A DNA stretch of 64,000 bases, taken from Actinopolymorphaceae bacterium (GTDB lineage: Bacteria; Actinomycetota; Actinomycetes; Propionibacteriales; DAIQRJ01). The position numbers were made by a program, and so were the translations under genes. The DNA lies in assembly GCA_036786375.1 (NCBI GenBank), contig DAIQRJ010000012.1:12267-76266 (forward strand), written 5' to 3'. The notes below the pieces were generated by a model, which had not been told where the DNA came from, searched no databases, and was given only the letters and a program-made list of their open reading frames with translations. This document shows, piece after piece, positions 8,667-62,317 of this stretch (the first letter of the stretch is position 1; every line of letters starts with the position of its first letter).

Positions 8667-13706
<5,040 letters not shown>

Positions 13707-14745: not shown

Positions 14746-14892
14746 CGGCGTCCCCCTCCCACGCTGGCTGGCTCTGGCTCCGGATGATCCCACCAGCGTC
14801 GACTTTCTGACAGAAGGTGTCTGGCTTCGGCCCCGGGACCGTTCGCAGGCGGCCGGGAGCGGACTGCTCGCACCGCCGTCACGGTCGTCGCA

Positions 14893-14943
14893 TTGACGCT
14901 GTCCGCCCGGCGCTCCTAGCGTGAGTGGGCCTGAAACCTTTCA
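14893..14943 (+). promoter_or_regulatory. Sigma-70-type promoter TTGACG-N18-TAGCGT followed by LacI-type operator TGAAACCTTTCA (14932-14943)
   Basis: Read directly from the sequence upstream of the GH78 gene. The near-palindrome is of the LacI-family type. Confidence 0.7.
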
Positions 14944-14966
14944 CTGGCCGGACTCGAGGAGCCCAC

Positions 14967-21118: not shown

Positions 21119-21187
21119 CCCGACCGGGTCGACGCTGCCCGAAACGTCCAGCAAGGATCAGTCGCACGAACGAACCAACGGAGGGAC

Positions 21188-22384: not shown

Positions 22385-24441
22385 TGACCGCGTCGACCAG
22401 CGGGAGTGCCCTATCCGTCCCGGCCGAGTTGATCGCGCGGTCGAACCGGCTCGGTGCCGACCCGAAGAACACGAACTATGCCGGCGGGAACACCTCCGCG
22501 AAGGGCTCCGCCATCGATCCGGTCACGGGCGAACCCGTCGACCTGCTGTGGGTGAAGGGCTCGGGCGGTGACCTCGGGACGCTGACCGAGGGGGGGCTCG
22601 CGGTCCTGCGGCTCGACCGCCTCCGTGCTCTTGCGGGCGTCTATCCCGGCGTGGATCGCGAGGACGAGATGGTCGCGGCCTTCGACTACACGTTGCACGG
22701 GAAGGGTGGTGCCGCGCCGTCCATCGACACCGCCATGCACGGCCTGCTCGACTCCGCGCACGTCGACCACCTGCATCCCGACTCGGGTATCGCCATCGCG
22801 ACGTCGACCGACGGCGAGGCGATCACGTCGGCGGCGTTCGGCGGTGCCGTGGTGTGGGTGCCGTGGCGCCGACCTGGGTTCCAGCTCGGCCTGGAGATCG
22901 CTGCCGTCAAGGGGGCGAATCCGACCGCCCGTGGATGCATTCTCGGTGGCCACGGCATCACCGCGTGGGGCGACACCAGCGACGAGGCGGAAGCCAATTC
23001 GCTGTGGATCATCGCCACGGCGCAGGCCTACATCGACGCACACCGCCGGCCCGACCCGTTCGGTCCCGTCGTTCCGGGCTACGAGGCGTTGCCGGTCGAC
23101 GCGCGGCGCGCGAAGGCGGCCGCGCTGGCCCCGACGATTCGCGGGCTCGCCTCGACCGACCGGATCCAGCTCGGGCACTTCACCGACAGCGATGTCGTCC
23201 TGGACTTCCTGGCGCGCGACCAGCATCCGCGGCTGGCGGCGCTCGGAACCAGCTGCCCGGACCATTTCCTGCGTACGAAGGTCAGACCCCTCGTCGTCGA
23301 CCTGCCGGCCGGCGCCTCCGTCGAGGACACGCTCGGTCGGCTCCGTGCCCTGCACGCCGACTACCGCGCGGAGTACCAAGCCTATTACGACCGGCACGCC
23401 GAGCCCGCCAGCCCGGCCATCCGCGGCGCCGATCCGGCGATCGTGCTCGTGCCCGGCGTCGGCATGTTCTCGTTCGGGACGAACAAGCAGACCGCGCGGG
23501 TGGCGGGGGAGTTCTACGTCAACGCGATCAACGTGATGCGCGGTGCGGAGGCGCTCTCGACCTATCACCCGATCGACGAGTCGGAGAAGTTCCGGATCGA
23601 GTACTGGGCACTGGAAGAGGCGAAACTGGCCCGGCTGCCGAAGCCCAAGCCGCTCGCCGGGCGGATCGCGTTCGTCACCGGTGGGGGTTCGGGCATCGGC
23701 CGGGCGACGGCGATCCGACTGGCGGCCGAGGGTGCGTGCGTCGTGGTGGCCGACCGCAACGTCGACGCCGCGACCGCGGTCGCAACCGAACTGGGTGGAC
23801 CCGACGTCGCGGTCGCGGCCGGTGCCGACGTAACCGACGAGGCGGGCGTCGTCGACGCGATCCGCGAAGCGGGGTTGGCGTTCGGGGGTATCGACCTCGT
23901 CGTCAACAACGCCGGGCTGTCGATCAGCAAGTCGCTGTTCGAGACGACGCTCGGAGACTGGGATCTCCAGCACGACGTGATGGCGCGAGGGTCATTCCTC
24001 GTGAGCCGTGAGGCTGCGCGAGTGATGCGCGATCAGGGCATCGGCGGCGACATCGTCTACATCAGCAGCAAGAACTCGGTCTTCGCCGGCCCGAACAACA
24101 TCGCCTACAGCGCCGCGAAGGCCGACCAGGCACACCAGGTGCGTCTGCTCGCTGCCGAACTCGGGGAGTTCGGCATCCGCGTGAACGGCATCAACCCCGA
24201 TGGCGTCGTCCGCGGGTCCGGCATCTTCGCCAGCGGGTGGGGGGCCAACCGCGCCAAGGTCTACGGCGTCGAGGAGCAGGACCTCGGCCAGTTCTACGCA
24301 CAGCGCACCCTGCTCAAGCAGGAGGTCCTCCCCGAGCACGTCGCCGCCGCCGTGGTTGCGCTGGTGTCCGGAGACCTGTCCCAGACGACGGGCCTGCACG
24401 TCCCGGTCGACTCCGGCGTCGCGGCGGCCTTCCTCCGGTGA
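22384..24441 (+). CDS. rhaD: Bifunctional rhamnulose-1-phosphate aldolase / short-chain dehydrogenase (RhaEW/RhaD type)
   Basis: NYAGGNTSAK, SIDTAMHG, DHLHPD, GTSCPDHFLRTK aldolase class II part fused to an SDR (TGGGSGIG, NNAG, YSAAK). Confidence 0.93.
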   Translation: MTASTSGSALSVPAELIARSNRLGADPKNTNYAGGNTSAKGSAIDPVTGEPVDLLWVKGSGGDLGTLTEGGLAVLRLDRLRALAGVYPGVDREDEMVAAFDYTLHGKGGAAPSIDTAMHGLLDSAHVDHLHPDSGIAIATSTDGEAITSAAFGGAVVWVPWRRPGFQLGLEIAAVKGANPTARGCILGGHGITAWGDTSDEAEANSLWIIATAQAYIDAHRRPDPFGPVVPGYEALPVDARRAKAAALAPTIRGLASTDRIQLGHFTDSDVVLDFLARDQHPRLAALGTSCPDHFLRTKVRPLVVDLPAGASVEDTLGRLRALHADYRAEYQAYYDRHAEPASPAIRGADPAIVLVPGVGMFSFGTNKQTARVAGEFYVNAINVMRGAEALSTYHPIDESEKFRIEYWALEEAKLARLPKPKPLAGRIAFVTGGGSGIGRATAIRLAAEGACVVVADRNVDAATAVATELGGPDVAVAAGADVTDEAGVVDAIREAGLAFGGIDLVVNNAGLSISKSLFETTLGDWDLQHDVMARGSFLVSREAARVMRDQGIGGDIVYISSKNSVFAGPNNIAYSAAKADQAHQVRLLAAELGEFGIRVNGINPDGVVRGSGIFASGWGANRAKVYGVEEQDLGQFYAQRTLLKQEVLPEHVAAAVVALVSGDLSQTTGLHVPVDSGVAAAFLR

Positions 24442-28294: not shown

Positions 28295-30088
28295 TCAGCC
28301 CTCGATCGCTGCCTTCTTCGACTGTGCTGAGCGGATCCGCTCCATCTCGACCTTCTCGGAGCGGTCGAACATGTAGATCCCGTTCTGCTCCTGGAACACG
28401 TCGGTCAGCTGCGTGTAGCAGTAGCCGAACATCAGCGGGTCGTCCAGCAGCGCCGCAACCAGGCCCTCGAAGCGTGTGTAGAACTCCTCCAGCGACGCCG
28501 GACGCTGCCCGTAGCCCCACGAGACGCTGCGGTCGTCGCGGGCGCCGGGCTGCCACCAGATGCCGCCGAACTCGCTGCAGAAGTAGGGCTGTCCCGCATA
28601 CGGCGTCGACCAGCCGGTCTCGCCCTGGTCCCGCCCGTTCTCGTACGGCATCCCGTCGGCCAACGGAGCCATCACCGCGGCGAACGCGGCCGGGTCCTGC
28701 TCGTAGTTGTGCGAGTCCCAGACGTCGGTCTCGCGAACCCGGTGTGAGTAGCCGGACGCGTCGAGCACCGGCCGGGTCGAGTCGATGGCCTTGGTGGCAA
28801 GGAACATCCCGGTCGTCACGTCGTCGAGCTGGGTGATCCGGTCGTGCAGATCCTGGTGCGTCTCGTTCAGCGGGCACCAGCCGACGATGGCCGGATGCGA
28901 GTAGTCGCGCTCGACCGCCTCCAGCCACTGGGTGATGTAGCTCGCCGTCGGCTGCTGGTTGTCGGAGTGATGACCGCCCACGTTGCTGCCCCAGTCGCCG
29001 AACTCGCCCCAGACCAGGTAGCCGAGCCGATCCGCGTGGAACAGGAAGCGCTCCTCGAACACCTTCTGGTGCAGGCGCGCCCCGTTGAAGCCCGCTGCCA
29101 TCGACAACTCGATGTCGCGGACGAGCGCGGCATCCGACGGTGCGGTGAGGATGCCGTCGCGGTAGAAGCCCTGGTCGAGCACGAGCCGCTGGAAGACGGG
29201 TTTCCCGTTCAGCAGAACGGCTTTCCCGTCGATGCCGACACTGCGCAGCCCTCCATAGGAGGTGACCGTGTCCAGGACGGAGCCATCCGCACCGAGGAGC
29301 TCGAGCACGAGGTCGTAGAGGAACGGGTCGGCCGGGCTCCACAACCGGACCGAGTCCTCGGCGGACAGGCGCAGCCGCACGGACAGGTCGAGATCGGCGC
29401 GCACGGTGACCGAGTCGAGCATCGTCCCATCGGCCGACAACGTCGCACGCACCGATGTCCCGGCACGATCCCCGCGGAGCGGGACGACGACATCGAACAC
29501 CGACTCGCCGACGTTCGGCGTCACCCGGGCGCGTTCGAGATGCACCTTGTGCGGAACGGGTTCCATCCACACGGTCTGCCAGATGCCGGTCGTCCTGGTG
29601 TAGTCGCAGTCGTGGTTCGCGTACTTGCGTGACTGCTTGCCGCCCGCCCGCACCATGTGCCGGCTGTCGCGCGCCCGGACGACGACCGTGACGGTGGACC
29701 CGCCGACATCACCCAGGTCGGCCGTGATCGGCGTCCAGCCGCCGCGGTGGCGGGCCACCTCGACACCGTCGGCCCAGATGGTCGTGTCGTGGTCGGACGC
29801 TTGCAGGTGCAGAAGCACGCGCTGACCCGACCAGGCCGCCGGGACCTCGACGTCACGCCGGTACCAGACGGCCTCGTGGAAGTCGACGTCGCCGATGCCC
29901 GAGAGTTCGGACTCGGGCGTGAACGGAACGATGATCTCGCCGTCCAGGGCAGCGCCGACGAGGCCTCGCTCGAACCCGGAATCTCCCGGGTCGAAGGCGA
30001 ATCCCCACACTCCGTTGAGGTTCACCCACGGCTCGCGGACGAAGGACGGGCGGGGGTATTCGGGTCGAGGCGTCTGGTCGGTGCTCAC
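28295..30088 (-). CDS. Glycoside hydrolase family 2 (beta-galactosidase/glucuronidase-like)
   Basis: PRPEYPRP..VR..WVNLNG.W.F, YTRTTGIWQTVWME, RLVLDQG, NGARLHQK, NHPS-like SHPAIVGWCPLNE, SEFGG, GYCYTQLTDVFQEQNG. Confidence 0.9.
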   Translation of the reverse strand: MSTDQTPRPEYPRPSFVREPWVNLNGVWGFAFDPGDSGFERGLVGAALDGEIIVPFTPESELSGIGDVDFHEAVWYRRDVEVPAAWSGQRVLLHLQASDHDTTIWADGVEVARHRGGWTPITADLGDVGGSTVTVVVRARDSRHMVRAGGKQSRKYANHDCDYTRTTGIWQTVWMEPVPHKVHLERARVTPNVGESVFDVVVPLRGDRAGTSVRATLSADGTMLDSVTVRADLDLSVRLRLSAEDSVRLWSPADPFLYDLVLELLGADGSVLDTVTSYGGLRSVGIDGKAVLLNGKPVFQRLVLDQGFYRDGILTAPSDAALVRDIELSMAAGFNGARLHQKVFEERFLFHADRLGYLVWGEFGDWGSNVGGHHSDNQQPTASYITQWLEAVERDYSHPAIVGWCPLNETHQDLHDRITQLDDVTTGMFLATKAIDSTRPVLDASGYSHRVRETDVWDSHNYEQDPAAFAAVMAPLADGMPYENGRDQGETGWSTPYAGQPYFCSEFGGIWWQPGARDDRSVSWGYGQRPASLEEFYTRFEGLVAALLDDPLMFGYCYTQLTDVFQEQNGIYMFDRSEKVEMERIRSAQSKKAAIEG

Positions 30089-30205
30089 GATCCCCAAGCT
30101 TGACCGAGCCGACCGCCACCTGCGCCCGCGGGTCCGCAGGACGGGACGAATTGGCCGCTGGTGGACGCAGCCGCCCGGCCGCCCGGTACCAGCCAGTGCA
30201 ACGCG

Positions 30206-30700
30206 TCAGGCGAACAGGAGCTCGCCGCCACGTCGGTGTTCGAGATCGAGCAGTGCCCGCTTGAGGGGCAGCCCGCCCCCGTAGCCGGTGAGCGATCCGT
30301 CGCTGCCGATGACCCGGTGGCAGGGGAGCACGATCGGGATCGGGTTCCGTCCGTTGGTGGCTCCGACGGCACGGGTGGCCGTCGGCCGCCCGACTCGCTC
30401 GGCGAGCCAGCGGTAGGACTCCGTCCGGCCGTAGGGGATCTCGGCGAGGGCGAACCACACCTCGCGCTGGAAGGCCGTGCCGGCCGGATCCAGTGGCAGG
30501 TCGAAGTCCTCGCGCGTACCGGCAAGGTATTCCCGGAGTTGCTCGATCGCCCTGTCCGCCACGGCATTCGTGGCGTCGTCGTCGGAATCGCAGGTCGCGA
30601 TGGCGGTGCCGTTGGGCAGCACGATCGTGGTGATGTGGGCGTGCTCGGCGACGACGTGCAGGACGCCCAGGTCGGTGTCGAGTCGGCGGACGGCGGTCAT
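30206..30700 (-). CDS. ogt: Methylated-DNA--protein-cysteine methyltransferase
   Basis: [34 protein letters not shown] active site. Confidence 0.93.
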
Positions 30701-32211
30701 GAGGCAACCTCGAGTTCAGCGGCAGCGGGGGTCGGCGGAGCGACCACGGGCAGAACGGCAGCGGGTTCGTAGCGGGAGTTCGTCCACAGCAGCTGTGCGG
30801 TCCAGCTGCGGAGCGGGCTCCAGCCGGCCGCGTGCGCAGCCAGCTCACGGGTCGTGGACGGAAGCCCGAGTCGGCCGGCCTCCCGCCGCAGGATCAGGTC
30901 GCCGGCCGGGAACGCGTCCGGGTCACCGAGCGCCCGCAGCCGGATGTAGTCGAGCGTCCACGCGCCGATGCCCGGGAGTCCCACGAGGGCCGCGGCGGAC
31001 GCCTGGAACGACGCAGCCGGATCAAGCGGGACGGTGCCGTCGAGAACGCCTGCGGTCAGTGCCTGCAGCGTGCGGTTTCGTGAACCCGGCATGGGAAGGG
31101 GCTCGCTGGCCCGGACTGCGTCGGGGGAAGGGAATGCGTGCGTGAGCGAGCCGCCGGTGTCCTCGACCGGCGTACCTGCCCGCGCGACGAGCAGCCCGGC
31201 GAGCCGTGCGGCGGCGGCGACCGACACCTGCTGCCCCAGCACGGCGCGAACCGCGGTCTCGTAGGTGTTGGTGCTGCCCGGTAACCGCAGCCCGGCGAAG
31301 CGTTCGGCCAGCGGCACGAGTACCGGGTCGTGCTCGAACACCTGTGCCCGGCCAACCGGGTCAGCGTCGAGGTCGAGCAAACGCCGGCACCGTGCCACCG
31401 CGGCCGACAGGTCACGCAGATCCGTCAGCTCGAGGTGGGCCTCGACGAAGCCGGACCGTGGCGTGAGCTCGACGATGCCGTGGCCGCTGGGCAGCGAAAG
31501 CACCCGGCGGTACGTGCCGTCGACGATCTCCTCCAGGCCCGAAATCAGCCGGGACTCAAGGAACGCCCAGAGATCGACGGCGTCGAACGGCTCCCGGTAG
31601 GCCAGCCGCAGTCGGAGACCAGGATGGGTGTCAGCGGTCCGCCCGGACCCGCCCCGCCGCTCGCGCAGCTCGCTGGGTGTGCAGCCGAAGACCTCGCGCA
31701 CGGTGTCGTTGAACTGCCGGATGCTGCCGAACCCGGCGGCGAACGCGACGTCGGCGAACGCAAGCTCGGTCGTCTGGGCCAGGATCCGGGCGGCGTGCGC
31801 GCGACGCGCCCGAGCGAGTTGCAGCGGACCTGCCCCCAGCTCACCGGTGAGGATGCGGTTCAGCTGTCGTGAGCTGTAGCCGAGCCGGTCGGACAATCCT
31901 TCGATGCCGTGCCGCTCGACATAACCGTCGTCGACCAGCCGTACGGCCCGGGCGGCGACGTGGGCCGCGTGATCGTAGGCGGGGGAGCCGGGTACAGCGT
32001 CGGGTCGGCAGCGCCGGCACGCGCGGAACCCGGCGAGCTGTGCGGCCGCCGACGTCGGATAGAACCGCACGTTGCCGCGTAGCGGCGTCCGCGCCGGGCA
32101 CGACGGCCGGCAGTAGATCCCGGTCGTGCGCACACCGGTGAAGAACCAGCCGTCGAAGCGTGGATCGCGGGTGGTGACGGCGGTGTAGCAGGCGTCCTGA
32201 TCAAGCTCCAT
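30697..32211 (-). CDS. alkA: AdaA-AlkA fusion: Ada metal-binding/AraC domain plus DNA-3-methyladenine glycosylase II
   Basis: [52 protein letters not shown]. Confidence 0.93.
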
Positions 32212-32283
32212 GGCCCTACAGTGCCACGCCGGACGACCGGCGACTAGCGGTTTCCGGACAACGCGGTGGGTCGGGATGAAGCG

Positions 32284-35894: not shown

Positions 35895-36641
35895 TCAGCG
35901 CGGAGCGAGGATGTAGCTCATTCCGTGGATGTCCTTGACGGTGCGGGTGCTCCATACCCCGAGCCCGTGCCAGTTCATCTCGACGATGTCGACGTACACG
36001 CCGTCGCGACGGTGTTCGACCGCGGTGACCCATCCCATGTGCCCGTACCTGCTGTTCGCGCGGTCGACGCCGGGCTGGAAGACGACGATCGAGTTGGCCT
36101 GGGCGGGCAGGACGACGGTCCAGCCGTTCGCCTTGGCCGACGCGGCGACGTCTTTCGCGTTTCCGCGGACCAACGGATACACACCGGTCCGTTTGTGGAA
36201 GTACTCGTATGCGCCCCACGTGCAGTTGCCGCTCGCCCCGCTGTTGTAGGTCCGAGTCTTTCCCCACGTCCGCCCCGTTTCGCTGGCACACGTCCTGGTG
36301 ATGGACCCGTTCGATCCGGTGCGCAGGAAGGCATCGCTGACGTATCCGCCTTTTTTCGTGCGGTACCAGAGCTTTGTCTTCAGCCCGGCCGGGCTCTTCA
36401 CCGACATCCCGCTTATCGAGCAGTCGAGGGCGACGGACGACTTGTTCTTCAGCCGGCGCAGGACCGGCGACGCCGTGTTGGGCGCCTGCCGGACGTTGAG
36501 GGCCGAGCCGCTCGTCCGGACGACGCCGGTCGGTACGGCGGCGTCGACGCTCGCGGCCACGGTGACACCGGCCCCTGCGACGAGCATCGCGGCGACGCCG
36601 ATTGTCGAGAGGCGGCGAATCAAGAGTCTCTTGTGTGTCAT
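35895..36641 (-). CDS. Secreted CHAP-domain cell-wall amidase with SH3-like domain
   Basis: Signal peptide, LNVRQAPNT..GYVSDAF SH3-like segment, GNCTW (Cys), YGHMGWV (His), VEMNW. Confidence 0.85.
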   Translation of the reverse strand: MTHKRLLIRRLSTIGVAAMLVAGAGVTVAASVDAAVPTGVVRTSGSALNVRQAPNTASPVLRRLKNKSSVALDCSISGMSVKSPAGLKTKLWYRTKKGGYVSDAFLRTGSNGSITRTCASETGRTWGKTRTYNSGASGNCTWGAYEYFHKRTGVYPLVRGNAKDVAASAKANGWTVVLPAQANSIVVFQPGVDRANSRYGHMGWVTAVEHRRDGVYVDIVEMNWHGLGVWSTRTVKDIHGMSYILAPR

Positions 36642-36678
36642 GTCTCTGTATTCACTCTTCTCCCTCGGGCCGATAATC

Positions 36679-36710
36679 GTCACATGCGTCACTATCGTCA
36701 CCACAGACAC
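36679..36710. promoter_or_regulatory. Four G(T/A)CAC direct repeats with exact 9-bp periodicity (MtrA-box-like) upstream of the CHAP gene
   Basis: GTCAC at 36679, 36688 and 36697; GACAC at 36706. Confidence 0.55.
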
Positions 36711-37025
36711 GGGAATATGCAAGCAAAATGACCAGATAGTGGGCATCACAACACCGAGAGTGAGGTTCAAAGAAAGTGACGCCGGTGTAATTACAAAGAT
36801 GTATTTCATTGCTTTCCTGCCGCCCGTTTCGGCCGTCCGTCGGGCGCTCCCGGGCTCGTTACACGCTTGTGATCAATGGCAGGAACAGGCCAGATCTGTC
36901 CGTCCAGACGGCTCTGCGGTCCTTGCCCGCCGGTGGTTCGCCGTGTTCGATCTCACACACAGCACGACGCGCCTGCGTGCTCCGCCAGACCGGCGCAAAC
37001 TCCCCTTGTCCCTCCGGAGGCCGTT

Positions 37026-39146
37026 GTGTCCATCTCCACTTCCCGCCGCACCATCCTCAAAGTCGCCGCCATCTCCGCCGGCGGCGTTGCGCTCGCCGCG
37101 TGCGGCAGTTCGAAGTCCAGCACCGGAAGCAAGTCGACCGACGCGTCGACCGGCGCCAGCACGGGTAAGGGGTCGGCAAAGGAGCCGCTCCCCAAGCCCG
37201 CGGCGTTCCAGGAGTCACCGCTCCTGACGAAGCAGGCCGAGGCGGGCACGATCCCGAAGCTCGCCGACCGGCTCCCCGAAGAGCCTTACGTCATCCCGCA
37301 CAACTGGGTGCAGAAGGGCAAGTACGGCGGCAAGCTGAAGATGAACATCAGCAGCACGAACGACGGCTGGGTCGGTGAGTGGTTCTACAGCCACGGCATG
37401 CTGCGATACCTCAACGACGGGCAGACCATCGGTCCCGGCGTCATCACCAAGTGGACCTCGAACGCGGACGCGTCGGAGTGGAACTTCACCCTGCGCAAGG
37501 GTCTGAAGTGGTCCGACGGTGAGCCGGTGACCACGGCCGACATCCTGTTCTGGTGGAACGACCTGGTGAACTACCCGGACTCGCTCAAGACCGCGCCCGA
37601 CGAGGCCAAGTCGGGCAAGGGCACGCTCTGCAAGCTGACCGCGAAGGACGACCTGACCTTCACGATGAAGTTCGACGCGCCGGCGCCGTTGACCGCGGAC
37701 CGGATGGCGATGTGGACCAACGGCTCCGCGGGAAGCGGCCCGATCTGGATCGTCCCGGCGCACTACGCCAAGCAGTTCCACCCGAGATACGCGAAGGTGC
37801 CGGCGAGCTGGGCCGGGGTCGGCGGGCTCTGGGAGCGGAGCATGTCGCAGCGTGTCAATCCGAAGTGCCCGACGTTGCTGCCGTTCAAGCTCACCAAGTA
37901 CAACGAGGGCCGCTCGCTCACCTGGGAGCGCAATCCCTACGCCTATGAGGTCACGAAGGAGGGCGACCAGCTGCCCTACATCGACGGCATCACGATGACC
38001 GTCGTGCAGGACTTCCAGGTCGGCAAGATCCAGATCGCCGCCGGCAAGGTCGATATCGTGCACGGCCCGCAGAGCTCGCTCATTCTCGCCGACGTGTCGA
38101 CGCTCAACAAGGCGAAGGCCAAGGCGGACATCGACATCTTCCTGTGGGACGGCGGCGCCGGTGCGGCCGGCACGTTCATCGCGTCCCTCGACTACTACGA
38201 AAAGCCCTACCGTGATCTGTTCCGCGAACCGAAGTTCCGCCAGGCGATCTCGCTGTGCATCAATCGGGCCGAAGCCAAGAAGTCGGTCTACTTCGAGCAG
38301 GGCGAGCTCACGACCGGCACGATGAGCCCCAAGGCGATCGAATACCTCGTCAACGACACGGGCAAGGCCGCGTATGTCTCGTGGCGCGACTCGTTCGTGA
38401 AGTACGACCCGGACGCAGCCAAAGCCCTGCTCGACGGACTCGGCCTCAAAGATACGAACAAGGACGGCTTCCGCGAGTTCCCCGACGGGACCCGACTTCG
38501 GCTCCGTTCCGACCGGTCGGCGACCACCGGTGATGACACGAAAGCCAAGGACACTCTGCTCATCCGCGACATGAAGGCCGTCGGCATCGAGATGATCATC
38601 AACCCGGTCGACCCGCTGTCCTTCGACTCTCACTGGACGTACGGAAAGTACATGGTCCGCACCGACTGGGGTATCGGTGACGGCCCGAACCACCTCGTCT
38701 ACCCACAATGGGTCGTGCCGATCGAATCGACTCGCTGGTCACCGCTGGTCGGCGCCATGTACAACGCGCGGGGAACGAAGGTGTACACGAGCGAACTCGA
38801 TCTCGACCCCTGGAAGCGGCACCCCCCGCGGGTCATGCCCGAGAAGGGCAGCGCGATCCAGAAGTTGTGGGATCTCTACGACACCACGAAGGTCGAGCCC
38901 GACTTCATGAAGCGCACCGCGACGGTCTGGGAGATGATCAAGGTGCACGTCGAGAACGGTCCTTACACGATCGGCACCGTCGCCAATATCCCCGATATCG
39001 TGGTGAAGAAGACCGACCTGAAGAACGTCCCCAGCAAAGAGAACCTCGCGCTCGGTGGATTCGCCGATCCGTGGATCCACCCGACCCCGGCCGTCTACGA
39101 CCCAGAGGCCTACTACTGGGATCACCCCGAACAGCACACCCTCTGA
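37026..39146 (+). CDS. ABC transporter substrate-binding lipoprotein, family 5 (peptide/oligosaccharide type)
   Basis: Tat-lipoprotein signal SRRTILK...LAAC, ESPLL..Q.EAG.IP.LADRLP, FTLRKGLKWSDGEP.TTAD, LPYID, FRQAIS..INR. Confidence 0.9.
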   Translation: MSISTSRRTILKVAAISAGGVALAACGSSKSSTGSKSTDASTGASTGKGSAKEPLPKPAAFQESPLLTKQAEAGTIPKLADRLPEEPYVIPHNWVQKGKYGGKLKMNISSTNDGWVGEWFYSHGMLRYLNDGQTIGPGVITKWTSNADASEWNFTLRKGLKWSDGEPVTTADILFWWNDLVNYPDSLKTAPDEAKSGKGTLCKLTAKDDLTFTMKFDAPAPLTADRMAMWTNGSAGSGPIWIVPAHYAKQFHPRYAKVPASWAGVGGLWERSMSQRVNPKCPTLLPFKLTKYNEGRSLTWERNPYAYEVTKEGDQLPYIDGITMTVVQDFQVGKIQIAAGKVDIVHGPQSSLILADVSTLNKAKAKADIDIFLWDGGAGAAGTFIASLDYYEKPYRDLFREPKFRQAISLCINRAEAKKSVYFEQGELTTGTMSPKAIEYLVNDTGKAAYVSWRDSFVKYDPDAAKALLDGLGLKDTNKDGFREFPDGTRLRLRSDRSATTGDDTKAKDTLLIRDMKAVGIEMIINPVDPLSFDSHWTYGKYMVRTDWGIGDGPNHLVYPQWVVPIESTRWSPLVGAMYNARGTKVYTSELDLDPWKRHPPRVMPEKGSAIQKLWDLYDTTKVEPDFMKRTATVWEMIKVHVENGPYTIGTVANIPDIVVKKTDLKNVPSKENLALGGFADPWIHPTPAVYDPEAYYWDHPEQHTL

Positions 39147-39214
39147 TCGATCCCGGCCGGCGCAGCCCGGGCCCAACCCAGAACGACCCGTAGCCCGGAA
39201 AGAGGCACTGCTCC

Positions 39215-40003
39215 ATGACTTCCCCCGCCAAGCTGTCAACCGACGGTCTCGACGACAAGAGCCTTGCGCAAGCCCTGCGCAGTCTCCACGACTCGGGTAT
39301 GGCAACAATCGAGAACCCTTACACCGCGGACGAGGTCGCGACGTTGAGGGACGCGTACGACGCGTTGCTCGACGCACGGCCCGAAGGCAAGGTGCAGCCG
39401 ACCGACGGTGAGCGCCATGTCCAGATGCAGATGCCGCTGGTGCCGCCGTTCTCCGACCCCACCACGGTCGCGCATCCCGTGGTGACACAGATCCTCTCCA
39501 TCGTTCTCGGGCCGGATTTCGAGTGCAGTTACTACAACTCCAACACGGCGTACCCGGGCTCGACGTACCAGCGGGTGCACCGTGATTCGGGGCTGATCTT
39601 CGGCACCGAGCAGAGTGGGGCGACGCCGCCGACCGGCATCGTCGTCAACATCCCGCTCTGCGACTTCACCGTCGAGAACGGCAGCACCGAGGTGTGGCCG
39701 GCGACCCACCTGATCGTCGACACCCCCGACGATGTCGAGGTGGCGCTGGACGATCGGACGAAGGTGCTCGCGTCCTCACGGCTCAACGTGACGGCGGGCT
39801 CGATCGTCCTGCGTGACCTGCGGGTCTGGCACCGCGGGGTTCCGAACAACTCCGACCACCAGCGCTCCATGCTGGCGATCGTCTACAAGCGCCACTTCCT
39901 CGGGTGGCGGCACAAGTCGCTGCGTGTGCCTGCGAGCACGTGGGACTCGTGGCCGGCCGACGTCCGGTCGATCTTCGAGAGCGCACCCAAGGACGCCGAC
40001 TGA
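39215..40003 (+). CDS. Phytanoyl-CoA dioxygenase (PhyH) family Fe(II)/2-oxoglutarate oxygenase, KanJ-like
   Basis: Facial triad HRD...H (QRVHRD, VWHRG), NIPLCDFTVENGSTEVWPATH, GSIVLRDLRVWHRGVPN. Confidence 0.85.
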   Translation: MTSPAKLSTDGLDDKSLAQALRSLHDSGMATIENPYTADEVATLRDAYDALLDARPEGKVQPTDGERHVQMQMPLVPPFSDPTTVAHPVVTQILSIVLGPDFECSYYNSNTAYPGSTYQRVHRDSGLIFGTEQSGATPPTGIVVNIPLCDFTVENGSTEVWPATHLIVDTPDDVEVALDDRTKVLASSRLNVTAGSIVLRDLRVWHRGVPNNSDHQRSMLAIVYKRHFLGWRHKSLRVPASTWDSWPADVRSIFESAPKDAD

Positions 40004-42681
40004 GCTTCGGCGCCTGGAGCATCCGCCGCGCCGGTGAACCGGCGCGGCAGATTGCTGTCCCAGGAGGTTGGGAGGACGCGGGCTACGCCAAGGACGACGC
40101 CGGCCCGTTCACGTACTCGACGACCTTCGAAGTCGGCTCGCGGAGCCCCGACACCCTTGTCTCGTTGAGGTTCGGGGCGGTCAGCTATGCGTGCACGGTC
40201 CTCGTCGACGGCGTCGAGGTCGGGCGGCACGTCGGCATGTGGACGCCGTTCGACGTCGACATCACCTCGGTGGTTCGGCATGCCGGCGACACCGCCGGTG
40301 ACACGGCCGGATCGCATCGTCTCGAGGTGATCGTCGAGAAGCCGGCGAGCCTCACCGCCGGCCCCGATTCTGCGAGCGGTCCCGGCCGGTACCCGGTCCG
40401 CAGCACGCTCGCGGGATTCCTTCCTTACGTATGGGGTCACAGTCACGGCGGCATCTGGCAGGCCGTCGAAGTCGTGCTGACCCCTGCTCTGCACATCACC
40501 GAGCTCGACTGCTGGGGCGATCCCGACGGCGGGGTGCACGTCGTCGTCACCGCGTCGGGCGACACCGACGGGCAGGTGGTCGTGAGTGACGACGACGGCG
40601 TCGCTGTTGCCGCCGCCGGCTTCCGGGCCGGTGTCTCGCCCGTGCAGGTCGTGGTCCCGGTCCGCGCGCCACTACCGTGGTCGCCCGCGGATCCACACCT
40701 GTACACGGTGTCCGCGCGGCTGGCCAACGGCGTGGTCGCCACCGCACGTATCGGTCTGCGCGCGCTGCGCGTGGGTCCCGACGTCGCGGGCAGCCGGAAC
40801 GCGCTGTGGCTGAACGGGGAACCGTTCTATCCGCGGATGCTGCTGTCCTGGGGCTGGTATCCCGATCGCCTCGTGCCGGATCCGGGCCCGCACCGTGTCC
40901 GCGAGGATCTGGAGCTCGTGCGCAGTCTCGGTTTCAACGGCGTGAAACTCTGCCTCTGGTTCCCGCCGCCGTACTACTTCGACATCGCCGACGAGCTCGG
41001 GATCGCCTTGTGGGTGGAGCTTCCGATGTGGCTGCCGCAACCGGGGGAGAGCTTCGGCGAGCAGCTGCGGGCCGAGACCGACGACCTGGTCCGGCTTGCC
41101 CGCGCACATCCCTGCGTGCTGCTGTACACGCTGGGCTGCGAGCTGGATGCCACCGTCGGCGAGGAGATCCTCGCGCCGCAGTACCGGCAGGTGAAGTCGC
41201 TCGTGCGGGATGCGCTGGTGTGCGACAACTCCGGCTCGGGGGAGGCGTACGGCGGCGTCGGGACTGTGCCGACGGATTTCTACGACCACCATCTCTACTG
41301 CGAACTCGAGCATGCCGAGGAGACGTTCGACTACTTCGCACCAGGCTGGCGAGCCCCGAAACCCTGGCTCTTAGGGGAGTTCTGCGATCTCGACACCTAT
41401 CGGGACCTTCGCCGGAGCTCGGCGTGGTGGATCAGTGCCGATGCGCGGGTCAACCCGCAGGGAGCTCGCTGGCAGTTCGACGTCCTTGAGCTGCCGGAAC
41501 GGCTCAAGTCCGGAGGCTGGTGGGAGCGCGGCGAGCAGCTCGAGCGGATCAGCCGGCACGCCGCGTTGCTGCATCGCAAGGCCACGTTGGAGATCGTGCG
41601 TGCACGAGCCGATGTCGCGGGCTATGTCGTGACCGGCGAACGGGACACCCCGATCAGCACGGCGGGACTTCTCGACGACGACGGCCGGCTGAAGGTCGAT
41701 CCCCGCGAGTTCGCCCGGGCCAACGCCGACACCGTGTTCCTCCTCGCGGGTGACCGGCGCCGGGAGTGGACGGCCGGTGGTGACCGGCCCGCGCCACCGG
41801 ACATGTGGTGTCATCCCTGCGGCGCGGTCGTGCGGATGCACCTGCTGGTGGCCAACGCCGGGCCGGTCGAGCTCGACCCGATGGTCAGGTGGCGGATGAC
41901 CGACATCGGCACCGGGGCGGTGCTCGGGGTCGGCGTCTGCCTGCCGTCGGATCACCTGCGTGGGAACGGCATTCACGAACTGACCGGCATCGAGGTGATG
42001 CTCCCGGCCGGGGATCGGCCGGGTGTTCTCGAGCTGGCCGTCGACGGCAGTGTCGGCGGCACGCCCAGCGGGAACCGCTGGCGGCTGTGGCAGTTCCCGA
42101 CGCCCACCTGGGGCAGTGACCCCGCGTTCACCCTGCTCGACCCGGGCCGGCGGTTCGACGAGCTCCGCGGAGTCGCCACGTCGGGCCTGCAGGCCGGACG
42201 CGTTGCGCTCGCAACCCGATGGAGCCCCGAACTCGAGTTGTTCGTCCGCGCCGGTGGGGACGCGCTGCTCGCGCTCGATGACGCCGCGGACGCGCCGGTG
42301 CCGTTGGTCGCCGAGCCGTTCTGGCGCGAGGCGGTGAAGGTGATCGAGCCGCACCGGTGGTGGGGGAGCTTCCCGCACGAGGGTGTCGTGGACCTGCAGT
42401 TCCTCGGTTGCGCGACCGACCGCGCGATGGACCTCGGCGGGGTCGGGGGCGTGCGGCCGTTGCTGCGGCGCATCGACGCCCGGACCGGCCGAACGCACGA
42501 CTATGCCGCGGAAGTCGCCGTGGGCAAGGGAAAAGTCCTCATGACGACACTGCGCTTCGAGGGTGGCCGGGGTTCGCAGCCGCGCGGCCTTACTGCGAAT
42601 GTCGGCGCGGCGTACCTGCTGGCGACGTGGATGCGGGGCCTCGCCGCCGATCAGCTGCGCTCGGCGAGCCCACGCAGGTAG
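40000..42681 (+). CDS. GH2-like glycoside hydrolase with long C-terminal extension
   Basis: AVPGGW sugar-binding domain, RFGAVSY, GGIWQ.V, PWSPADPHLY, GFNGVKLCLW, HPCVLLYTLGCE, LGEF. Start uncertain; CTG overlapping the upstream TGA assumed. Confidence 0.75.
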   Translation: MSFGAWSIRRAGEPARQIAVPGGWEDAGYAKDDAGPFTYSTTFEVGSRSPDTLVSLRFGAVSYACTVLVDGVEVGRHVGMWTPFDVDITSVVRHAGDTAGDTAGSHRLEVIVEKPASLTAGPDSASGPGRYPVRSTLAGFLPYVWGHSHGGIWQAVEVVLTPALHITELDCWGDPDGGVHVVVTASGDTDGQVVVSDDDGVAVAAAGFRAGVSPVQVVVPVRAPLPWSPADPHLYTVSARLANGVVATARIGLRALRVGPDVAGSRNALWLNGEPFYPRMLLSWGWYPDRLVPDPGPHRVREDLELVRSLGFNGVKLCLWFPPPYYFDIADELGIALWVELPMWLPQPGESFGEQLRAETDDLVRLARAHPCVLLYTLGCELDATVGEEILAPQYRQVKSLVRDALVCDNSGSGEAYGGVGTVPTDFYDHHLYCELEHAEETFDYFAPGWRAPKPWLLGEFCDLDTYRDLRRSSAWWISADARVNPQGARWQFDVLELPERLKSGGWWERGEQLERISRHAALLHRKATLEIVRARADVAGYVVTGERDTPISTAGLLDDDGRLKVDPREFARANADTVFLLAGDRRREWTAGGDRPAPPDMWCHPCGAVVRMHLLVANAGPVELDPMVRWRMTDIGTGAVLGVGVCLPSDHLRGNGIHELTGIEVMLPAGDRPGVLELAVDGSVGGTPSGNRWRLWQFPTPTWGSDPAFTLLDPGRRFDELRGVATSGLQAGRVALATRWSPELELFVRAGGDALLALDDAADAPVPLVAEPFWREAVKVIEPHRWWGSFPHEGVVDLQFLGCATDRAMDLGGVGGVRPLLRRIDARTGRTHDYAAEVAVGKGKVLMTTLRFEGGRGSQPRGLTANVGAAYLLATWMRGLAADQLRSASPRR

Positions 42682-43163
42682 GCGGCCTGACCGATGTGCT
42701 GGGCGTCGTCGTCGATGACGCTGACGAGCCGCACGGCCAGCGTCACCGGCGGCGTCCACGATTCGTCCACCACCCGCGCCAGGTCCGCATCTGTCAGCGT
42801 GCCGACATAGGCGACCGTCCGGTCGAACACCGCGTCGTGATAGCCGGCGAGCAGGGCGCCGGAGTCCATCTCGACGGCAGCGACCTCGTCGGCCGACTGC
42901 CCATAGCCGGTCGCGGCCGGGTCGAACGGGAAACCGAGGCGATGGAACCAGCCGTCGCTCGTCCACACCTGCTCGGCGCCCTCGACGTCGGCGAGGTGGT
43001 CGTCCTGGACCCGGGTCAGGTGCCAGACCAGCCAGGCGATCGAGTTCGCGCCCGGGTCGGGTCGGAACGTGAGCTCGGCGGCGCCGAGGCCGTCCAGGAC
43101 GGCGTGCACGTTGTCGCGGACACGGCCGAATCCGTCGATCAGCAGGTCGGTTGCTGCGGACAT
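42651..43163 (-). CDS. DinB/DUF664 family (mycothiol transferase-like) protein
   Basis: RPDPGANSIAWLVWHLTRVQDDH, VRLVSVIDDDAQHIGQAAY. Confidence 0.85.
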   Translation of the reverse strand: MSAATDLLIDGFGRVRDNVHAVLDGLGAAELTFRPDPGANSIAWLVWHLTRVQDDHLADVEGAEQVWTSDGWFHRLGFPFDPAATGYGQSADEVAAVEMDSGALLAGYHDAVFDRTVAYVGTLTDADLARVVDESWTPPVTLAVRLVSVIDDDAQHIGQAAYLRGLAERS

Positions 43164-43300
43164 GGCATTCACCTCGGGACTCGGATGTGGACGGGCGGGA
43201 TCGCCTGCCCACCTGCTTACCACGTGGGTGTCTTGCCCTCGTGGTCGGCGTCTGGTCTGCTGGCATGGACGTGTTGCCACCTGTACCGGAAGGACGTCCG

Positions 43301-47059: not shown

Positions 47060-47575
47060 ATGACCTGGATCGCTCCGACCCCCGACCCCGTCGACGGACC
47101 GCTCACCGGTGCCGATCGTCGCATCCTCGAGGGATTCCTTGCCTGGCAGCGAAGTACGTTGCTCAACATCTGCGCGGGACTCACCGCCGAGCAGCTTGCG
47201 AGCCGCCCGCTGGCCACCTCGAACCTCACCCTGCTCGGGCTTGTCCGGCACATGGGCAAGGTCGAACGGGTGTGGTTCCGCCACCGTGCGGCCCACGACC
47301 CGATCGGGCCGATGTACGACCCCGCCCTCGGCAAGGACGCCGACTTCGACGACATCGATGCGGCCGAAGCGGAGGTCGCTGTCCTGCGACTGCAGGACGA
47401 ATGGGTCGAGGCCGACCGCGCCGTCGCCGGCCTCTCCTTCGACGACACCCTTCAAGCTCGTGACGACGTGATGTCGCTGCGGATGACCTACGTCCACATG
47501 ATCGGCGAGTACGCGCGCCACAACGGGCATGCCGATCTGCTGCGCGAGGCCATCGACGGGGTCACCGCCCGCTAG
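47060..47575 (+). CDS. DinB/DUF664 family protein
   Basis: FLAWQRSTLLNICAGLT, LLGLVRHMGKVER.WF, HMIGEYARHNGHADLLREAIDG. Confidence 0.88.
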   Translation: MTWIAPTPDPVDGPLTGADRRILEGFLAWQRSTLLNICAGLTAEQLASRPLATSNLTLLGLVRHMGKVERVWFRHRAAHDPIGPMYDPALGKDADFDDIDAAEAEVAVLRLQDEWVEADRAVAGLSFDDTLQARDDVMSLRMTYVHMIGEYARHNGHADLLREAIDGVTAR

Positions 47576-59011: not shown

Positions 59012-59287
59012 CTACGTTCGGTCCTCAACCGTCGGCGTCCGTGCACTGATCCGTCGCCAGTCGATCGTCGTGACGGCGACGAGCGCGACGAAGACGACGC
59101 CGAGGCAGCCGACGATGAGCCATTCGACGGTGCCGTTGCCGTTGTCGGGATCGACACCGAACACCGCCTCGATCCAGTCCGGCACCACGAGCGTCAGGAT
59201 CAGCAGGAATCCGCAGACGCCGGCGAGGATGCCCTGGATCCGCAGGTGTCGTGGAATCTGTCGTCGATTCCGGTTGAGGTCGGTCAT
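59012..59287 (-). CDS. Small two-TM membrane protein
   Basis: Two hydrophobic helices around DWIEAVFGVDPDNGNGTVEW; ATGA overlap with the upstream large gene. Confidence 0.7.
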   Translation of the reverse strand: MTDLNRNRRQIPRHLRIQGILAGVCGFLLILTLVVPDWIEAVFGVDPDNGNGTVEWLIVGCLGVVFVALVAVTTIDWRRISARTPTVEDRT

Positions 59288-62190: not shown

Positions 62191-62317
62191 CGCGGTCGCG
62201 CCTTCTCTGGCCTCGGCATGAGGATGCTGAACGCCACCAGCGATTGTGAGCTTGACATCGCTGCAGCGCTAGAGGATGAACCATGCCAAACCGACCCGAT
62301 CGTCGTTGCCGACGGCG

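What the first reader, a model, noticed from the sequence alone, without database searches (positions are those of the whole stretch)
37026..42681. KanJ-like dioxygenase embedded in a binding-protein/glycosidase operon: possible oxidative amino-sugar or aminoglycoside catabolism
Seen: family-5 SBP, then PhyH oxygenase, then GH2-like hydrolase, co-directional, with the last two overlapping. The oxygenase segments HPVVTQILSIVLG, PGSTYQRVHRD, PLCDFTVENGSTEVWP and GSIVLRDLRVWHRGVPN closely resemble, by my recall, KanJ. Known: KanJ is the Fe(II)/2OG enzyme that oxidatively deaminates kanamycin B at C2'. No biosynthetic genes (DOI synthase, aminotransferases, glycosyltransferases) are nearby. Inference: a catabolic module that imports an amino-sugar-containing glycoside, removes the amine oxidatively and hydrolyses it. 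This could be an undescribed route for using or inactivating aminoglycoside-like molecules.
Basis: partly seen in the sequence, partly recalled or inferred. Interest (0 to 1): 0.62.

Follow-up and report, generated by a model that had tools for sequence, protein, structure and literature searches.

The report
KanJ-like dioxygenase, binding-protein, glycosidase operon
A soil actinobacterium carries a three-gene operon for a sugar-type uptake binding protein, an iron/2-oxoglutarate oxygenase whose only characterised close relative is the kanamycin-deaminating enzyme KanJ, and a GH2-type glycosidase. It looks like a nutrient-scavenging module for an unknown, possibly amine-bearing, glycoside, but only the binding-protein/oxygenase pair recurs in relatives and no substrate is established.

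Summary
Three co-directional genes lie at 37026-42681: a Tat-lipoprotein family-5 binding protein (SBP), a 262-aa PhyH-fold dioxygenase, and a 910-aa GH2-fold hydrolase whose only possible start codons lie inside or on the stop of the dioxygenase gene.

The recalled KanJ resemblance is real and specific. KanJ scores E 1e-27 by sequence against 2e-6 for the next solved PhyH enzyme, and TM 0.83 by fold. The iron triad, the 2OG arginine and three of four KanJ sugar contacts are kept.

It is not a KanJ orthologue:
- KanJ is equally distant (30-40%) from every member of a widespread, unnamed clade.
- There is no KanK-like reductase or biosynthetic cluster nearby.

The three-gene linkage is not conserved:
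- The SBP-dioxygenase pair recurs in five actinobacterial genomes, in both gene orders.
- The glycosidase is a clean 2.65-kb indel, absent from the syntenic relative.
- It adjoins a clade member in one other surveyed locus (Anaerolineae), and lies about 3 kb from a more distant PhyH gene in a second.
- At least 13 genomes carry both families unlinked.

Best reading: a catabolic uptake/oxidation/hydrolysis module. Amine removal is inferred, not shown. Antibiotic inactivation is unlikely. Interest is moderate.

The parts
36810..37025 (.). Divergent intergenic region between the CHAP-domain gene (- strand, start codon at 36809) and the SBP gene. It presumably holds the operon promoter. RBS GGAGG lies at 37016-37020.
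   Evidence: Sequence read; gene calls. The consensus scan found no sigma-70-like site here, so the promoter is inferred only.
37026..39146 (+). Family-5 (cluster C) solute-binding lipoprotein, 706 aa, with a Tat-type signal and a lipobox Cys. It is an 'orphan': no permease or ATPase genes are adjacent.
   Evidence: Pfam SBP_bac_5 E 4e-49. Closest solved structures: 5ipw (4e-51), pectin-oligosaccharide binder SPH1118 (6e-40), alpha-galactoside binder AgpA (4e-19). Gene call. N-terminus.
39215..40003 (+). KanJ-like Fe(II)/2-oxoglutarate dioxygenase (PhyH fold), 262 aa, no signal peptide. Proposed ligands: H122, D124, H206. Proposed 2OG-binding Arg: R217.
   Evidence: KanJ E 1e-27; these residues are invariant in 18 homologues. 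AF2 model, pLDDT 90.6. TM 0.78-0.83 to KanJ.
39949..40003 (+). Overlap junction. The only canonical start codons of the glycosidase frame (GTG 39904, 39940, 39949) lie inside the dioxygenase ORF. The alternative is CTG 40000, which overlaps the TGA stop (CTGA) and has AAGGA 7 nt upstream. Either way translation is coupled.
   Evidence: One search lists the in-frame starts. One search shows homologues begin about at LSFGAW, and the invariant W23 lies downstream.
39949..42681 (+). GH2-fold glycoside hydrolase of an uncharacterised subfamily, 910 aa, cytoplasmic. The candidate acid/base is E398, in an invariant LGCEL motif where Cys replaces the usual Asn. The candidate nucleophile is E477, in an invariant GEF/YxD motif. 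The 3' end overlaps the convergent DinB/MST gene by 31 nt.
   Evidence: GH2 beta-D-galactofuranosidase 9j6n, E 1e-26, with E398 aligned to its NE glutamate; invariant columns. AF2 pLDDT 77, pTM 0.80; 8u01 TM 0.70 over the full length; gene bounds.

Best explanation
This is a three-gene catabolic operon of an uncultured soil actinobacterium.

Step 1 is inferred from family and signal sequence. A Tat-exported lipoprotein of the large, carbohydrate-leaning branch of family-5 binding proteins captures a small glycoside or oligosaccharide-like nutrient outside the cell. It hands the nutrient to an ABC translocator encoded elsewhere.

Step 2: the fold and catalytic residues are shown, but the chemistry is inferred. 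In the cytoplasm an Fe(II)/2-oxoglutarate dioxygenase acts on the nutrient. It belongs to an unnamed clade whose nearest characterised relative is KanJ. It hydroxylates a ring carbon that carries a heteroatom substituent. The most likely substituent is an amine, which would leave as ammonia and give a keto-sugar, as KanJ does at C2' of kanamycin B.

Step 3: the fold and candidate catalytic glutamates are shown, but the specificity is unknown. A translationally coupled GH2-fold retaining glycosidase cleaves the glycosidic bond.

The conserved functional core is the binding-protein/dioxygenase pair. The glycosidase is a lineage-specific add-on that tailors the module to a glycosidic substrate in this organism.
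For: Gene order, overlaps and the absence of an internal terminator fit one transcript.

KanJ is by far the closest solved relative:
- E 1e-27 against 2e-6 for the next.
- TM 0.83 with E 1e-24, against 1e-16 for the next fold.
- H122/D124/H206, R217 and most polar pocket residues are invariant and aligned with KanJ.
- KanJ sugar contacts Gln80, Asn120 and Asp134 correspond to Q70, N110 and D124. The residue list is from my memory of the KanJ structure paper. All four residue types fit chain 6s0u at an offset of -2.

The SBP-dioxygenase adjacency recurs in L001, L005, L007, L008 and L009, in both gene orders. The adjacent SBPs fall in two SBP clades, and every sampled member of those clades is so paired.

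Links between the glycosidase and the dioxygenase:
- An independent adjacency in an Anaerolineae MAG: GH172-GH2L-KanJL (L055).
- A PhyH gene 3 kb from a GH2L gene in a Chthonomonadaceae MAG (L140).
- At least 13 assemblies carry both families unlinked (contig lists). About 0.1 would be expected if the two were independent across 185,579 genomes, but this is confounded by shared taxonomy.

Neighbours elsewhere in the clade echo KanJ/KanK logic and sugar or amine metabolism:
- Aldo-keto reductase (12 loci), GFO/IDH/MocA (9), SDR (7), DegT aminotransferase (4).
- Amidohydrolase, GNAT, GlnA-like and FMO-like genes in actinobacterial orthologue loci.

The SBP's best solved relatives include oligosaccharide binders. 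The window is rich in glycosidases: GH35, GH123, GH2, GH78 and rhamnose genes.
Against: - No substrate is known for any of the three families. NCBIfam has no model that names any of them.
- The glycosidase is missing from the syntenic relative. Its usual partners are LacI, family-1 SBPs and MGH1-like hydrolases, not dioxygenases.
- No reductase is in the operon to deal with a keto product.
- KanJ contact Cys150 is Val143 here, and KanJ's Asp two residues after Cys150 (6s0u Asp154) is an invariant Asn145.
- SBP paralogues also sit beside penicillin amidase and Opp-type permeases, so a sugar ligand is not assured.
- GntR/FCD regulators next to two orthologues usually sense carboxylates (my own knowledge).
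- Operonic neighbours of the clade are very heterogeneous: 102 Pfam families among 72 proteins.
Confidence: 0.4

Rival explanations
1. The conserved SBP-dioxygenase pair handles a non-glycosidic nitrogen compound, such as an amine, an amino-acid derivative or an acylated/peptidic molecule. The GH2-like gene landed next to it by an indel and is functionally unrelated, merely borrowing the operon's transcription.
For: - The glycosidase is a clean 2,654-bp indel, absent from the 80%-identical syntenic locus, and is rarely adjacent elsewhere.
- Orthologue loci carry Amidohydro_3, GNAT, GlnA-like and FMO-like genes and GntR/FCD regulators.
- The closest SBP paralogues sit with penicillin amidase plus Opp-type permeases.
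- Family-5 SBPs are classically peptide or opine binders.
Against: - The start codon lies inside or on the stop of the dioxygenase gene, so expression is obligatorily coupled.
- A second, independent GH2L-KanJL adjacency exists in another phylum.
- The two families co-occur in at least 13 genomes.
- The only characterised close relative acts on a glycoside.
Confidence: 0.28
2. The dioxygenase oxidises a neutral or acidic sugar rather than an amino sugar. Possible reactions are oxidative O-demethylation, de-esterification or direct ketone formation on an oligosaccharide from plant or microbial cell walls. The GH2-like enzyme removes the residue so exposed.
For: - Hydroxylation next to any heteroatom is generic Fe/2OG chemistry (established knowledge).
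- KanJ's amine-binding Cys150 is not conserved, and an invariant Arg (R123) sits in the HxD motif where KanJ has Leu.
- FCD-type regulators lie beside two orthologues.
- The SBP resembles the pectin-oligosaccharide binder SPH1118.
- GH2L's sequence hits include many beta-glucuronidases and beta-galacturonidases.
- The surrounding genes encode GH78, GH35 and rhamnose enzymes.
Against: - No characterised member of this subfamily does this.
- Nitrogen-metabolism neighbours in the orthologue loci and DegT aminotransferases in the wider clade point to amines.
Confidence: 0.2
3. The module detoxifies or consumes aminoglycoside antibiotics: a KanJ-type attack on the 2'-amine followed by deglycosylation.
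For: KanJ is the closest characterised enzyme, and several of its neamine contacts are conserved.
Against: - KanJ is equidistant from the whole widespread clade, which occurs in Latescibacterota, Poribacteria, Armatimonadota and Alphaproteobacteria in very varied contexts.
- Cys150 is replaced.
- The KanJ/KanK product, kanamycin A, is still an antibiotic (PMC5533434).
- No resistance genes are adjacent.
- GH2 enzymes are beta-retaining, whereas aminoglycoside linkages are mostly alpha (my own knowledge).
Confidence: 0.05

Closest known systems
KanJ, kanamycin B dioxygenase (EC 1.14.11.37; PDB 6S0R-6S0W, 7CL2-7CL6), with its partner reductase KanK
   Same: - PhyH-type double-stranded beta-helix fold: TM 0.78-0.83.
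- 36% identity over 232 residues.
- Shared HxD...H iron triad, 2OG arginine and the WHRGxPN, ENGSTExWP and PGS motifs.
- Counterparts of KanJ contacts Gln80, Asn120 and Asp134.
   Different: - Not orthologous: KanJ is 30-40% identical to every clade member, while the members are 35-84% identical to the window protein.
- Cys150 is Val. The HxD middle residue is Arg rather than Leu. KanJ's Asp two residues after Cys150 (6s0u Asp154) is Asn145 here.
- No KanK-type reductase and no aminoglycoside gene cluster. The partner here is a binding protein.
Generic PhyH-family Fe/2OG oxygenases (AndA, SptF, DhiD, and ectoine-hydroxylase-like proteins as annotated by JGI)
   Same: Pfam PF05721 membership. 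Many homologues carry the automatic label 'ectoine hydroxylase-related dioxygenase'.
   Different: They are far more distant than KanJ: E 2e-6 or worse by sequence and E 1e-16 by fold. The generic label says nothing about the substrate.
GH2 glycosidases: beta-D-galactofuranosidase ORF1110 of Streptomyces sp. JHA19 (9J6M/9J6N) and the uncharacterised Phocaeicola plebeius GH2 (8U01)
   Same: - N-terminal sugar-binding, Ig-like and TIM-barrel domains align with the galactofuranosidase: E 1e-26, about 25% identity.
- The full five-domain architecture matches 8U01 at TM 0.70.
- The acid/base Glu is aligned.
   Different: - Only about 16-25% identity.
- An invariant Cys replaces the Asn of the NE motif, and there is a family-specific DNSGSGEAYGG motif.
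- The C-terminal 450 residues have no sequence match in the PDB.
- Specificity is unknown.
Large carbohydrate-type cluster C binding proteins (5IPW; SPH1118, pectin oligosaccharides; AgpA, alpha-galactosides)
   Same: SBP_bac_5 fold with full-length sequence similarity: E 4e-51 to 4e-19.
   Different: - About 700 aa.
- It is encoded without permease or ATPase genes.
- It belongs to a multi-paralogue actinobacterial and chloroflexal family whose other members sit in unrelated contexts.

Membership tests
KanJ (kanamycin B dioxygenase) orthologue | Fe(II) facial triad HxD...H and 2OG-binding Arg on a PhyH-type DSBH fold | tested here: met
   H122, D124, H206 and R217 align with the KanJ residues and are invariant in 18 homologues. 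The model has TM 0.83 to KanJ.
KanJ (kanamycin B dioxygenase) orthologue | Conservation of the neamine-contacting residues Gln80, Asn120, Asp134 and Cys150 (list from my memory of the KanJ structure paper) | tested here: inconclusive
   Q70, N110 and D124 are conserved, but Cys150 corresponds to V143 (alignment). The paper itself was not available.
KanJ (kanamycin B dioxygenase) orthologue | Closer to KanJ than to other members of the superfamily, with KanJ nested among its nearest relatives | tested here: not met
   KanJ is the nearest solved structure. However, it is 30-40% identical to all 80 clade loci alike, and 36% to the window protein. It therefore lies outside the clade.
KanJ (kanamycin B dioxygenase) orthologue | Adjacent KanK-type NADPH reductase and an aminoglycoside biosynthetic cluster | tested here: not met
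   No reductase, DOI synthase, aminotransferase or glycosyltransferase lies within about 10 kb.
KanJ (kanamycin B dioxygenase) orthologue | Oxidative deamination of kanamycin B at C2' | not testable with these tools
   This needs an enzyme assay.
PhyH family (PF05721) | Score above Pfam's gathering threshold over the whole domain | tested here: met
   65.7 bits against a cut-off of 22, covering profile positions 2-212 of 213.
Family-5 ABC substrate-binding protein | SBP_bac_5 domain plus an export signal | tested here: met
   168 bits against a cut-off of 32.4. The SRRTILK Tat-like motif and LAAC lipobox are read from the translation.
Family-5 ABC substrate-binding protein | Encoded together with its permease and ATPase genes | tested here: not met
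   None lies within about 10 kb. Only 9 of the 30 closest family loci have permeases adjacent.
Glycoside hydrolase family 2 | GH2 multi-domain fold with a TIM-barrel catalytic domain | tested here: met
   PDB GH2 hits reach E 1e-26. Foldseek gives TM 0.70 over the full length to 8u01, and all top hits are GH2. The Pfam N-terminal domains are just below threshold, and the Ig-like domain scores 26 against a cut-off of 23.
Glycoside hydrolase family 2 | Catalytic acid/base Glu in an NE motif and a nucleophile Glu | tested here: inconclusive
   E398 aligns with the NE glutamate of 9j6n, but the preceding residue is an invariant Cys. E477, in the invariant GEF/YxD motif, is assigned as nucleophile by position only.

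The most novel reading that the evidence does not exclude
A widespread, unnamed sister clade of KanJ performs catabolic oxidative deamination of amino-sugar glycosides. Candidates include glucosamine- or galactosamine-containing oligosaccharides, and pseudodisaccharides resembling neamine or GlcN-inositol. In Actinomycetota each such dioxygenase would be paired with a dedicated orphan binding lipoprotein. In this organism it would also be paired with a GH2-type enzyme whose Cys-for-Asn active-site change suits a sugar modified at C2. This would be an O2/2OG-dependent route for stripping amines from sugars at the glycoside level. It would be distinct from the known deacetylase/deaminase pathways that act on phosphorylated monosaccharides.
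Probability: 0.2. Interest if true: 0.7.

Novelty: new variant of a known kind. Interest (0 to 1): 0.42.

Why it matters
KanJ is so far a one-off biosynthetic curiosity. Its fold and pocket also occur in a distinct, phylogenetically broad clade: 213 genome loci, found in Actinomycetota, Chloroflexota, Armatimonadota, Latescibacterota, Poribacteria, Gemmatimonadota and Alphaproteobacteria. Pipelines currently mislabel these proteins as 'kanJ' antibiotic biosynthesis (for example PMC12993501) or as 'ectoine hydroxylase-related'.

Showing what the clade does would correct those annotations. It could also reveal an oxygen-dependent way of removing amines or other substituents from sugars during soil carbon and nitrogen turnover. 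The recurring pairing with an orphan binding protein gives a direct experimental handle on the substrate through ligand screening.

Tried and rejected
1. Conservation of the trio was tested by fetching 80 dioxygenase loci, 79 GH2L loci and 80 SBP loci and searching each set with the other two proteins by tblastn. The trio as such occurs only in this organism's own contigs.
2. I looked for a universal partner gene by clustering all neighbouring ORFs and by Pfam census of operonic neighbours. There is none. The contexts are heterogeneous.
3. DinB/MST as a conserved partner seemed possible, because a DinB/MST gene is convergent with the operon here and with GH2L in Actinopolymorpha rutila. I rejected it: the two DinB genes are only distant paralogues, and no other locus shows the arrangement.
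4. Recent horizontal transfer was considered as the cause of the lower GC (0.64) of the SBP-dioxygenase segment. I rejected it: third-position GC is 0.88, as in neighbouring genes, so the difference comes from amino-acid composition.
5. Named families were sought in NCBIfam. None reaches its cut-off.
6. Literature searches found no characterised non-biosynthetic KanJ-like enzyme and no paper on this gene trio. The KanJ structure paper was not held.
8. Promoter and terminator scans found nothing informative inside the operon.
Full report
**What is there.** The window is about 70% GC. It matches contigs from several ENA and JGI metagenomes that encode the identical dioxygenase (19 contigs). An independent gene call on those contigs, third-position GC and Pfam all agree on three co-directional genes:
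- A family-5 solute-binding protein (SBP), 37026-39146, 706 aa, SBP_bac_5 E 4e-49.
- A PhyH-family dioxygenase, 39215-40003, 262 aa, E 9e-18.
- A 910-aa GH2-like protein, 39949-42681.

The unit is bounded upstream by a divergent CHAP/SH3 cell-wall hydrolase gene. Downstream a convergent DinB/mycothiol-S-transferase-like gene overlaps the GH2-like stop by 31 nt. No permease, ATPase, reductase or regulator belongs to the unit.

The SBP starts at a GTG behind GGAGG. It carries an SRRTILK...LAAC N-terminus, which I read as a Tat signal plus lipobox. The two enzymes have no signal peptide.

**The junction.** In the GH2-like frame the only canonical start codons (39904, 39940, 39949) lie inside the dioxygenase ORF. 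The only alternative is CTG 40000, which overlaps the TGA stop and has AAGGA 7 nt upstream. Homologues begin just before the invariant Trp encoded after that point. Translation of the glycosidase is therefore coupled to the dioxygenase, whichever start is used.

**Is it KanJ-like?** Yes, and specifically so.
- phmmer against all PDB sequences gives KanJ at E 1e-27. The next PhyH-type enzymes (DhiD, SptF, AndA) score 2e-6 or worse.
- An AlphaFold model (pLDDT 90.6) finds only KanJ chains in its first 37 Foldseek hits (TM 0.78-0.83, E about 1e-24). AndA and SptF follow at 1e-16.
- The iron ligands (H122, D124, H206), the 2OG arginine (R217) and the PGS, ENGSTEVWP and RDxRxWHRGxPN motifs are shared with KanJ. 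They are invariant among 18 diverse homologues.
- From memory, the KanJ structure paper names Gln80, Asn120, Asp134 and Cys150 as neamine contacts. All four residue types fit chain 6s0u at an offset of -2, which supports the recollection. They map to Q70, N110, D124 and V143, so three of four are kept.

**Is it KanJ?** No.
- The protein belongs to a clade with 213 loci in the species-representative genome set and 37 clusters (at 50% identity) with E 1e-30 or better in the 1.8-billion-protein library.
- The clade spans Actinomycetota, Chloroflexota, Armatimonadota, Latescibacterota, Poribacteria, Gemmatimonadota and Alphaproteobacteria.
- KanJ is 30-40% identical to every one of the 80 loci examined, and 36% to the window protein. 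The loci themselves are 35-84% identical to the window protein. KanJ is thus an outlier or sister, not a member.
- Sources label these proteins 'phytanoyl-CoA dioxygenase', 'ectoine hydroxylase-related' or, through KEGG, 'kanJ' (PMC12993501). None is characterised, and NCBIfam has no model for them.

**Is the linkage conserved?** Only in part.
- tblastn of the SBP and GH2-like proteins against the 80 dioxygenase loci finds the SBP adjacent in five actinobacterial genomes (L001, L005, L007, L008, L009). A weaker SBP hit lies about 4 kb away in L006.
- The order is SBP then dioxygenase in the window, L001 and L008. It is dioxygenase then SBP in L005, L007 and L009, again without permeases.
- In a neighbour-joining tree of the SBP family, the adjacent SBPs form two clades, and every sampled member of those clades is so paired.
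- The family as a whole is large (at least 558 loci) and multi-paralogous. Only 1 of the 80 sampled SBP-family loci has the dioxygenase adjacent (L191, the same locus as L007). Other paralogues lie next to penicillin amidase with Opp-type permeases, GH39, tandem SBPs or unrelated genes.

The glycosidase behaves differently.
- In the syntenic relative (84% identical dioxygenase), window 37041-40003 and 42658-43184 align at about 80%. The 2,654 bp between them, which is the whole body of the GH2-like gene, is replaced by 46 bp.
- Among the 80 dioxygenase loci the GH2-like gene is adjacent once, in an Anaerolineae MAG with the order DUF2961/GH172, GH2-like, dioxygenase (L055).
- Among 79 GH2-like loci, a more distant PhyH gene lies about 3 kb away once (L140).
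- The usual neighbours of the GH2-like family are LacI regulators, family-1 SBPs with sugar permeases, SDR and GFO/IDH/MocA enzymes, and above all an MGH1-like (alpha/alpha)6 hydrolase, which accounts for 14 of 98 nearest neighbours.
- On the other side, 13 assemblies appear in both the dioxygenase and the GH2-like lists. These include 9 of the 14 genomes with the closest dioxygenases. About 0.1 would be expected from independence, but shared taxonomy inflates this figure and I could not correct for it.

**The glycosidase.**
- Sequence hits are all GH2: beta-D-galactofuranosidase 9j6n at E 1e-26 over residues 52-451, then beta-glucuronidases and beta-galacturonidases.
- The AlphaFold model (pLDDT 77, pTM 0.80) matches the full five-domain GH2 architecture of the uncharacterised Phocaeicola plebeius protein 8u01 (TM 0.70).
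- E398 aligns with the acid/base Glu of the galactofuranosidase. The preceding residue is a Cys that is invariant across the family (LGCEL), where clan GH-A enzymes have Asn. E477, in an invariant GEF/YxD motif, is the likely nucleophile.
- In GH-A enzymes that Asn contacts the 2-hydroxyl of the sugar (established knowledge). Its replacement could fit a sugar modified at C2, but this is speculation.

**What the wider clade's neighbours say.** There is no universal partner: 102 Pfam families occur among 72 operonic neighbours. Recurrent ones include:
- Aldo-keto reductases: 12 loci, divergent, in Latescibacterota and Gemmatimonadota.
- GFO/IDH/MocA oxidoreductases: 9 loci, several immediately downstream.
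- SDRs: 7 loci.
- DegT-type sugar aminotransferases: 4 loci.
- GDSL esterases, GNATs, xylose-isomerase-like TIM barrels and MFS sugar transporters.

Actinobacterial orthologue loci add GntR/FCD regulators, an Amidohydro_3 enzyme, a GNAT, a GlnA-like protein and FMO-like flavoproteins. A dioxygenase next to an NAD(P)H reductase repeats the KanJ/KanK logic, in which oxidative deamination to a ketone is followed by reduction (PMC5533434). The remaining neighbours have a sugar/cyclitol and amine-metabolism flavour. This is suggestive, not decisive.

**Most likely mechanism.**
1. An exported binding lipoprotein captures a small glycoside and passes it to a translocator encoded elsewhere.
2. The cytoplasmic KanJ-like dioxygenase hydroxylates a carbon bearing a heteroatom substituent. 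An amine is the most likely substituent, giving ammonia and a keto-sugar.
3. The coupled GH2-type enzyme hydrolyses the glycosidic bond.

Shown: the gene structure, the folds, the catalytic residues, the specific kinship to KanJ, the recurrence of the SBP-dioxygenase pair, and the indel nature of the glycosidase. Inferred: the ligand class, the amine, the order of the steps, and any functional tie between dioxygenase and glycosidase beyond co-expression. I put this reading at about 0.4.

**Rivals.**
- A non-glycosidic nitrogen compound, with the glycosidase as a passenger: about 0.28.
- Oxidation of a neutral or acidic sugar without an amine: about 0.2.
- Aminoglycoside detoxification: about 0.05. 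It is disfavoured by the clade's breadth and varied contexts, by the lost Cys150, and because the KanJ/KanK product is itself an antibiotic.

**Verdict.** Its catabolic reading is reasonable but only partly supported, and it fails its own test that the three-gene linkage be conserved.

The finding is a new variant of a known kind: a KanJ-sister Fe/2OG dioxygenase recruited to a binding-protein-linked, probably catabolic, module. Interest is moderate. It is an uncharacterised, widely distributed and commonly mis-annotated enzyme clade with a clear experimental handle, but no surprising mechanism has yet been demonstrated.

Noticed in passing
window 3-1832 (+), 2945-4657 (+), 9993-13706 (+), 13726-14940 (-), 14925-18086 (+), 21119-24441 (+), 28295-30205 (-): The window is a saccharolytic neighbourhood. 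It holds GH35 beta-galactosidase, GH123, a LacZ-type GH2 (ORF up to 1237 aa), a LacI regulator, GH78 alpha-L-rhamnosidase, an RhaA-like isomerase, a class II aldolase-SDR fusion (rhamnose catabolism type) and a second GH2.
   Followed up: partly
window 39949-42681, residues C397-E398: The whole GH2-like family has an invariant Cys in place of the Asn of the clan GH-A 'NE' acid/base motif, plus an invariant DNSGSGEAYGG motif. No characterised GH2 with this change was found among the PDB hits.
   Followed up: partly
L089, L092, L096, L097, L101, L108, L120/L167, L136, L159 and others: The commonest immediate neighbour of the GH2-like family is an MGH1-like / rhamnosidase-six-hairpin (alpha/alpha)6 hydrolase of about 700 aa (14 of 98 nearest neighbours). 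In A. rutila it overlaps the GH2-like start by 31 nt. This looks like a conserved two-glycosidase pair of unknown substrate.
   Followed up: partly
L168-L197 (SBP family loci): The roughly 700-aa family-5 SBP has many paralogues per genome in Actinopolymorpha and related MAGs (at least 5 in A. rutila). Most lack adjacent permeases (only 9 of the 30 closest have them), which suggests several orphan SBPs share one translocator.
   Followed up: partly
L084 8138-9967: In the syntenic relative the SBP is called as four short fragments, although its DNA aligns without a break to the window's SBP at 80% identity. This is probably frameshift error in a long-read assembly rather than a pseudogene.
   Followed up: no
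window 30206-32283 (-): An Ada-AlkA fusion (Ada Zn-binding + AraC HTH + AlkA N-terminal domain) overlaps an O6-methylguanine methyltransferase gene. Together they form an adaptive-response alkylation-repair operon.
   Followed up: no
window 42651-43163 (-) and 47060-47575 (+): Two DinB/mycothiol-S-transferase-like paralogues flank the region. A distant paralogue also lies convergent to the GH2-like gene in A. rutila, but the link is not conserved.
   Followed up: yes
window 59284-62268 (-): A 994-aa ORF with coding-type GC pattern has no Pfam match at E 1e-4 or better.
   Followed up: no
window 36001-40000: The SBP-dioxygenase segment has GC 0.64, against about 0.70 around it. Third-position GC is unchanged at 0.88, so the dip reflects amino-acid composition, not obviously recent transfer.
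   Followed up: yes
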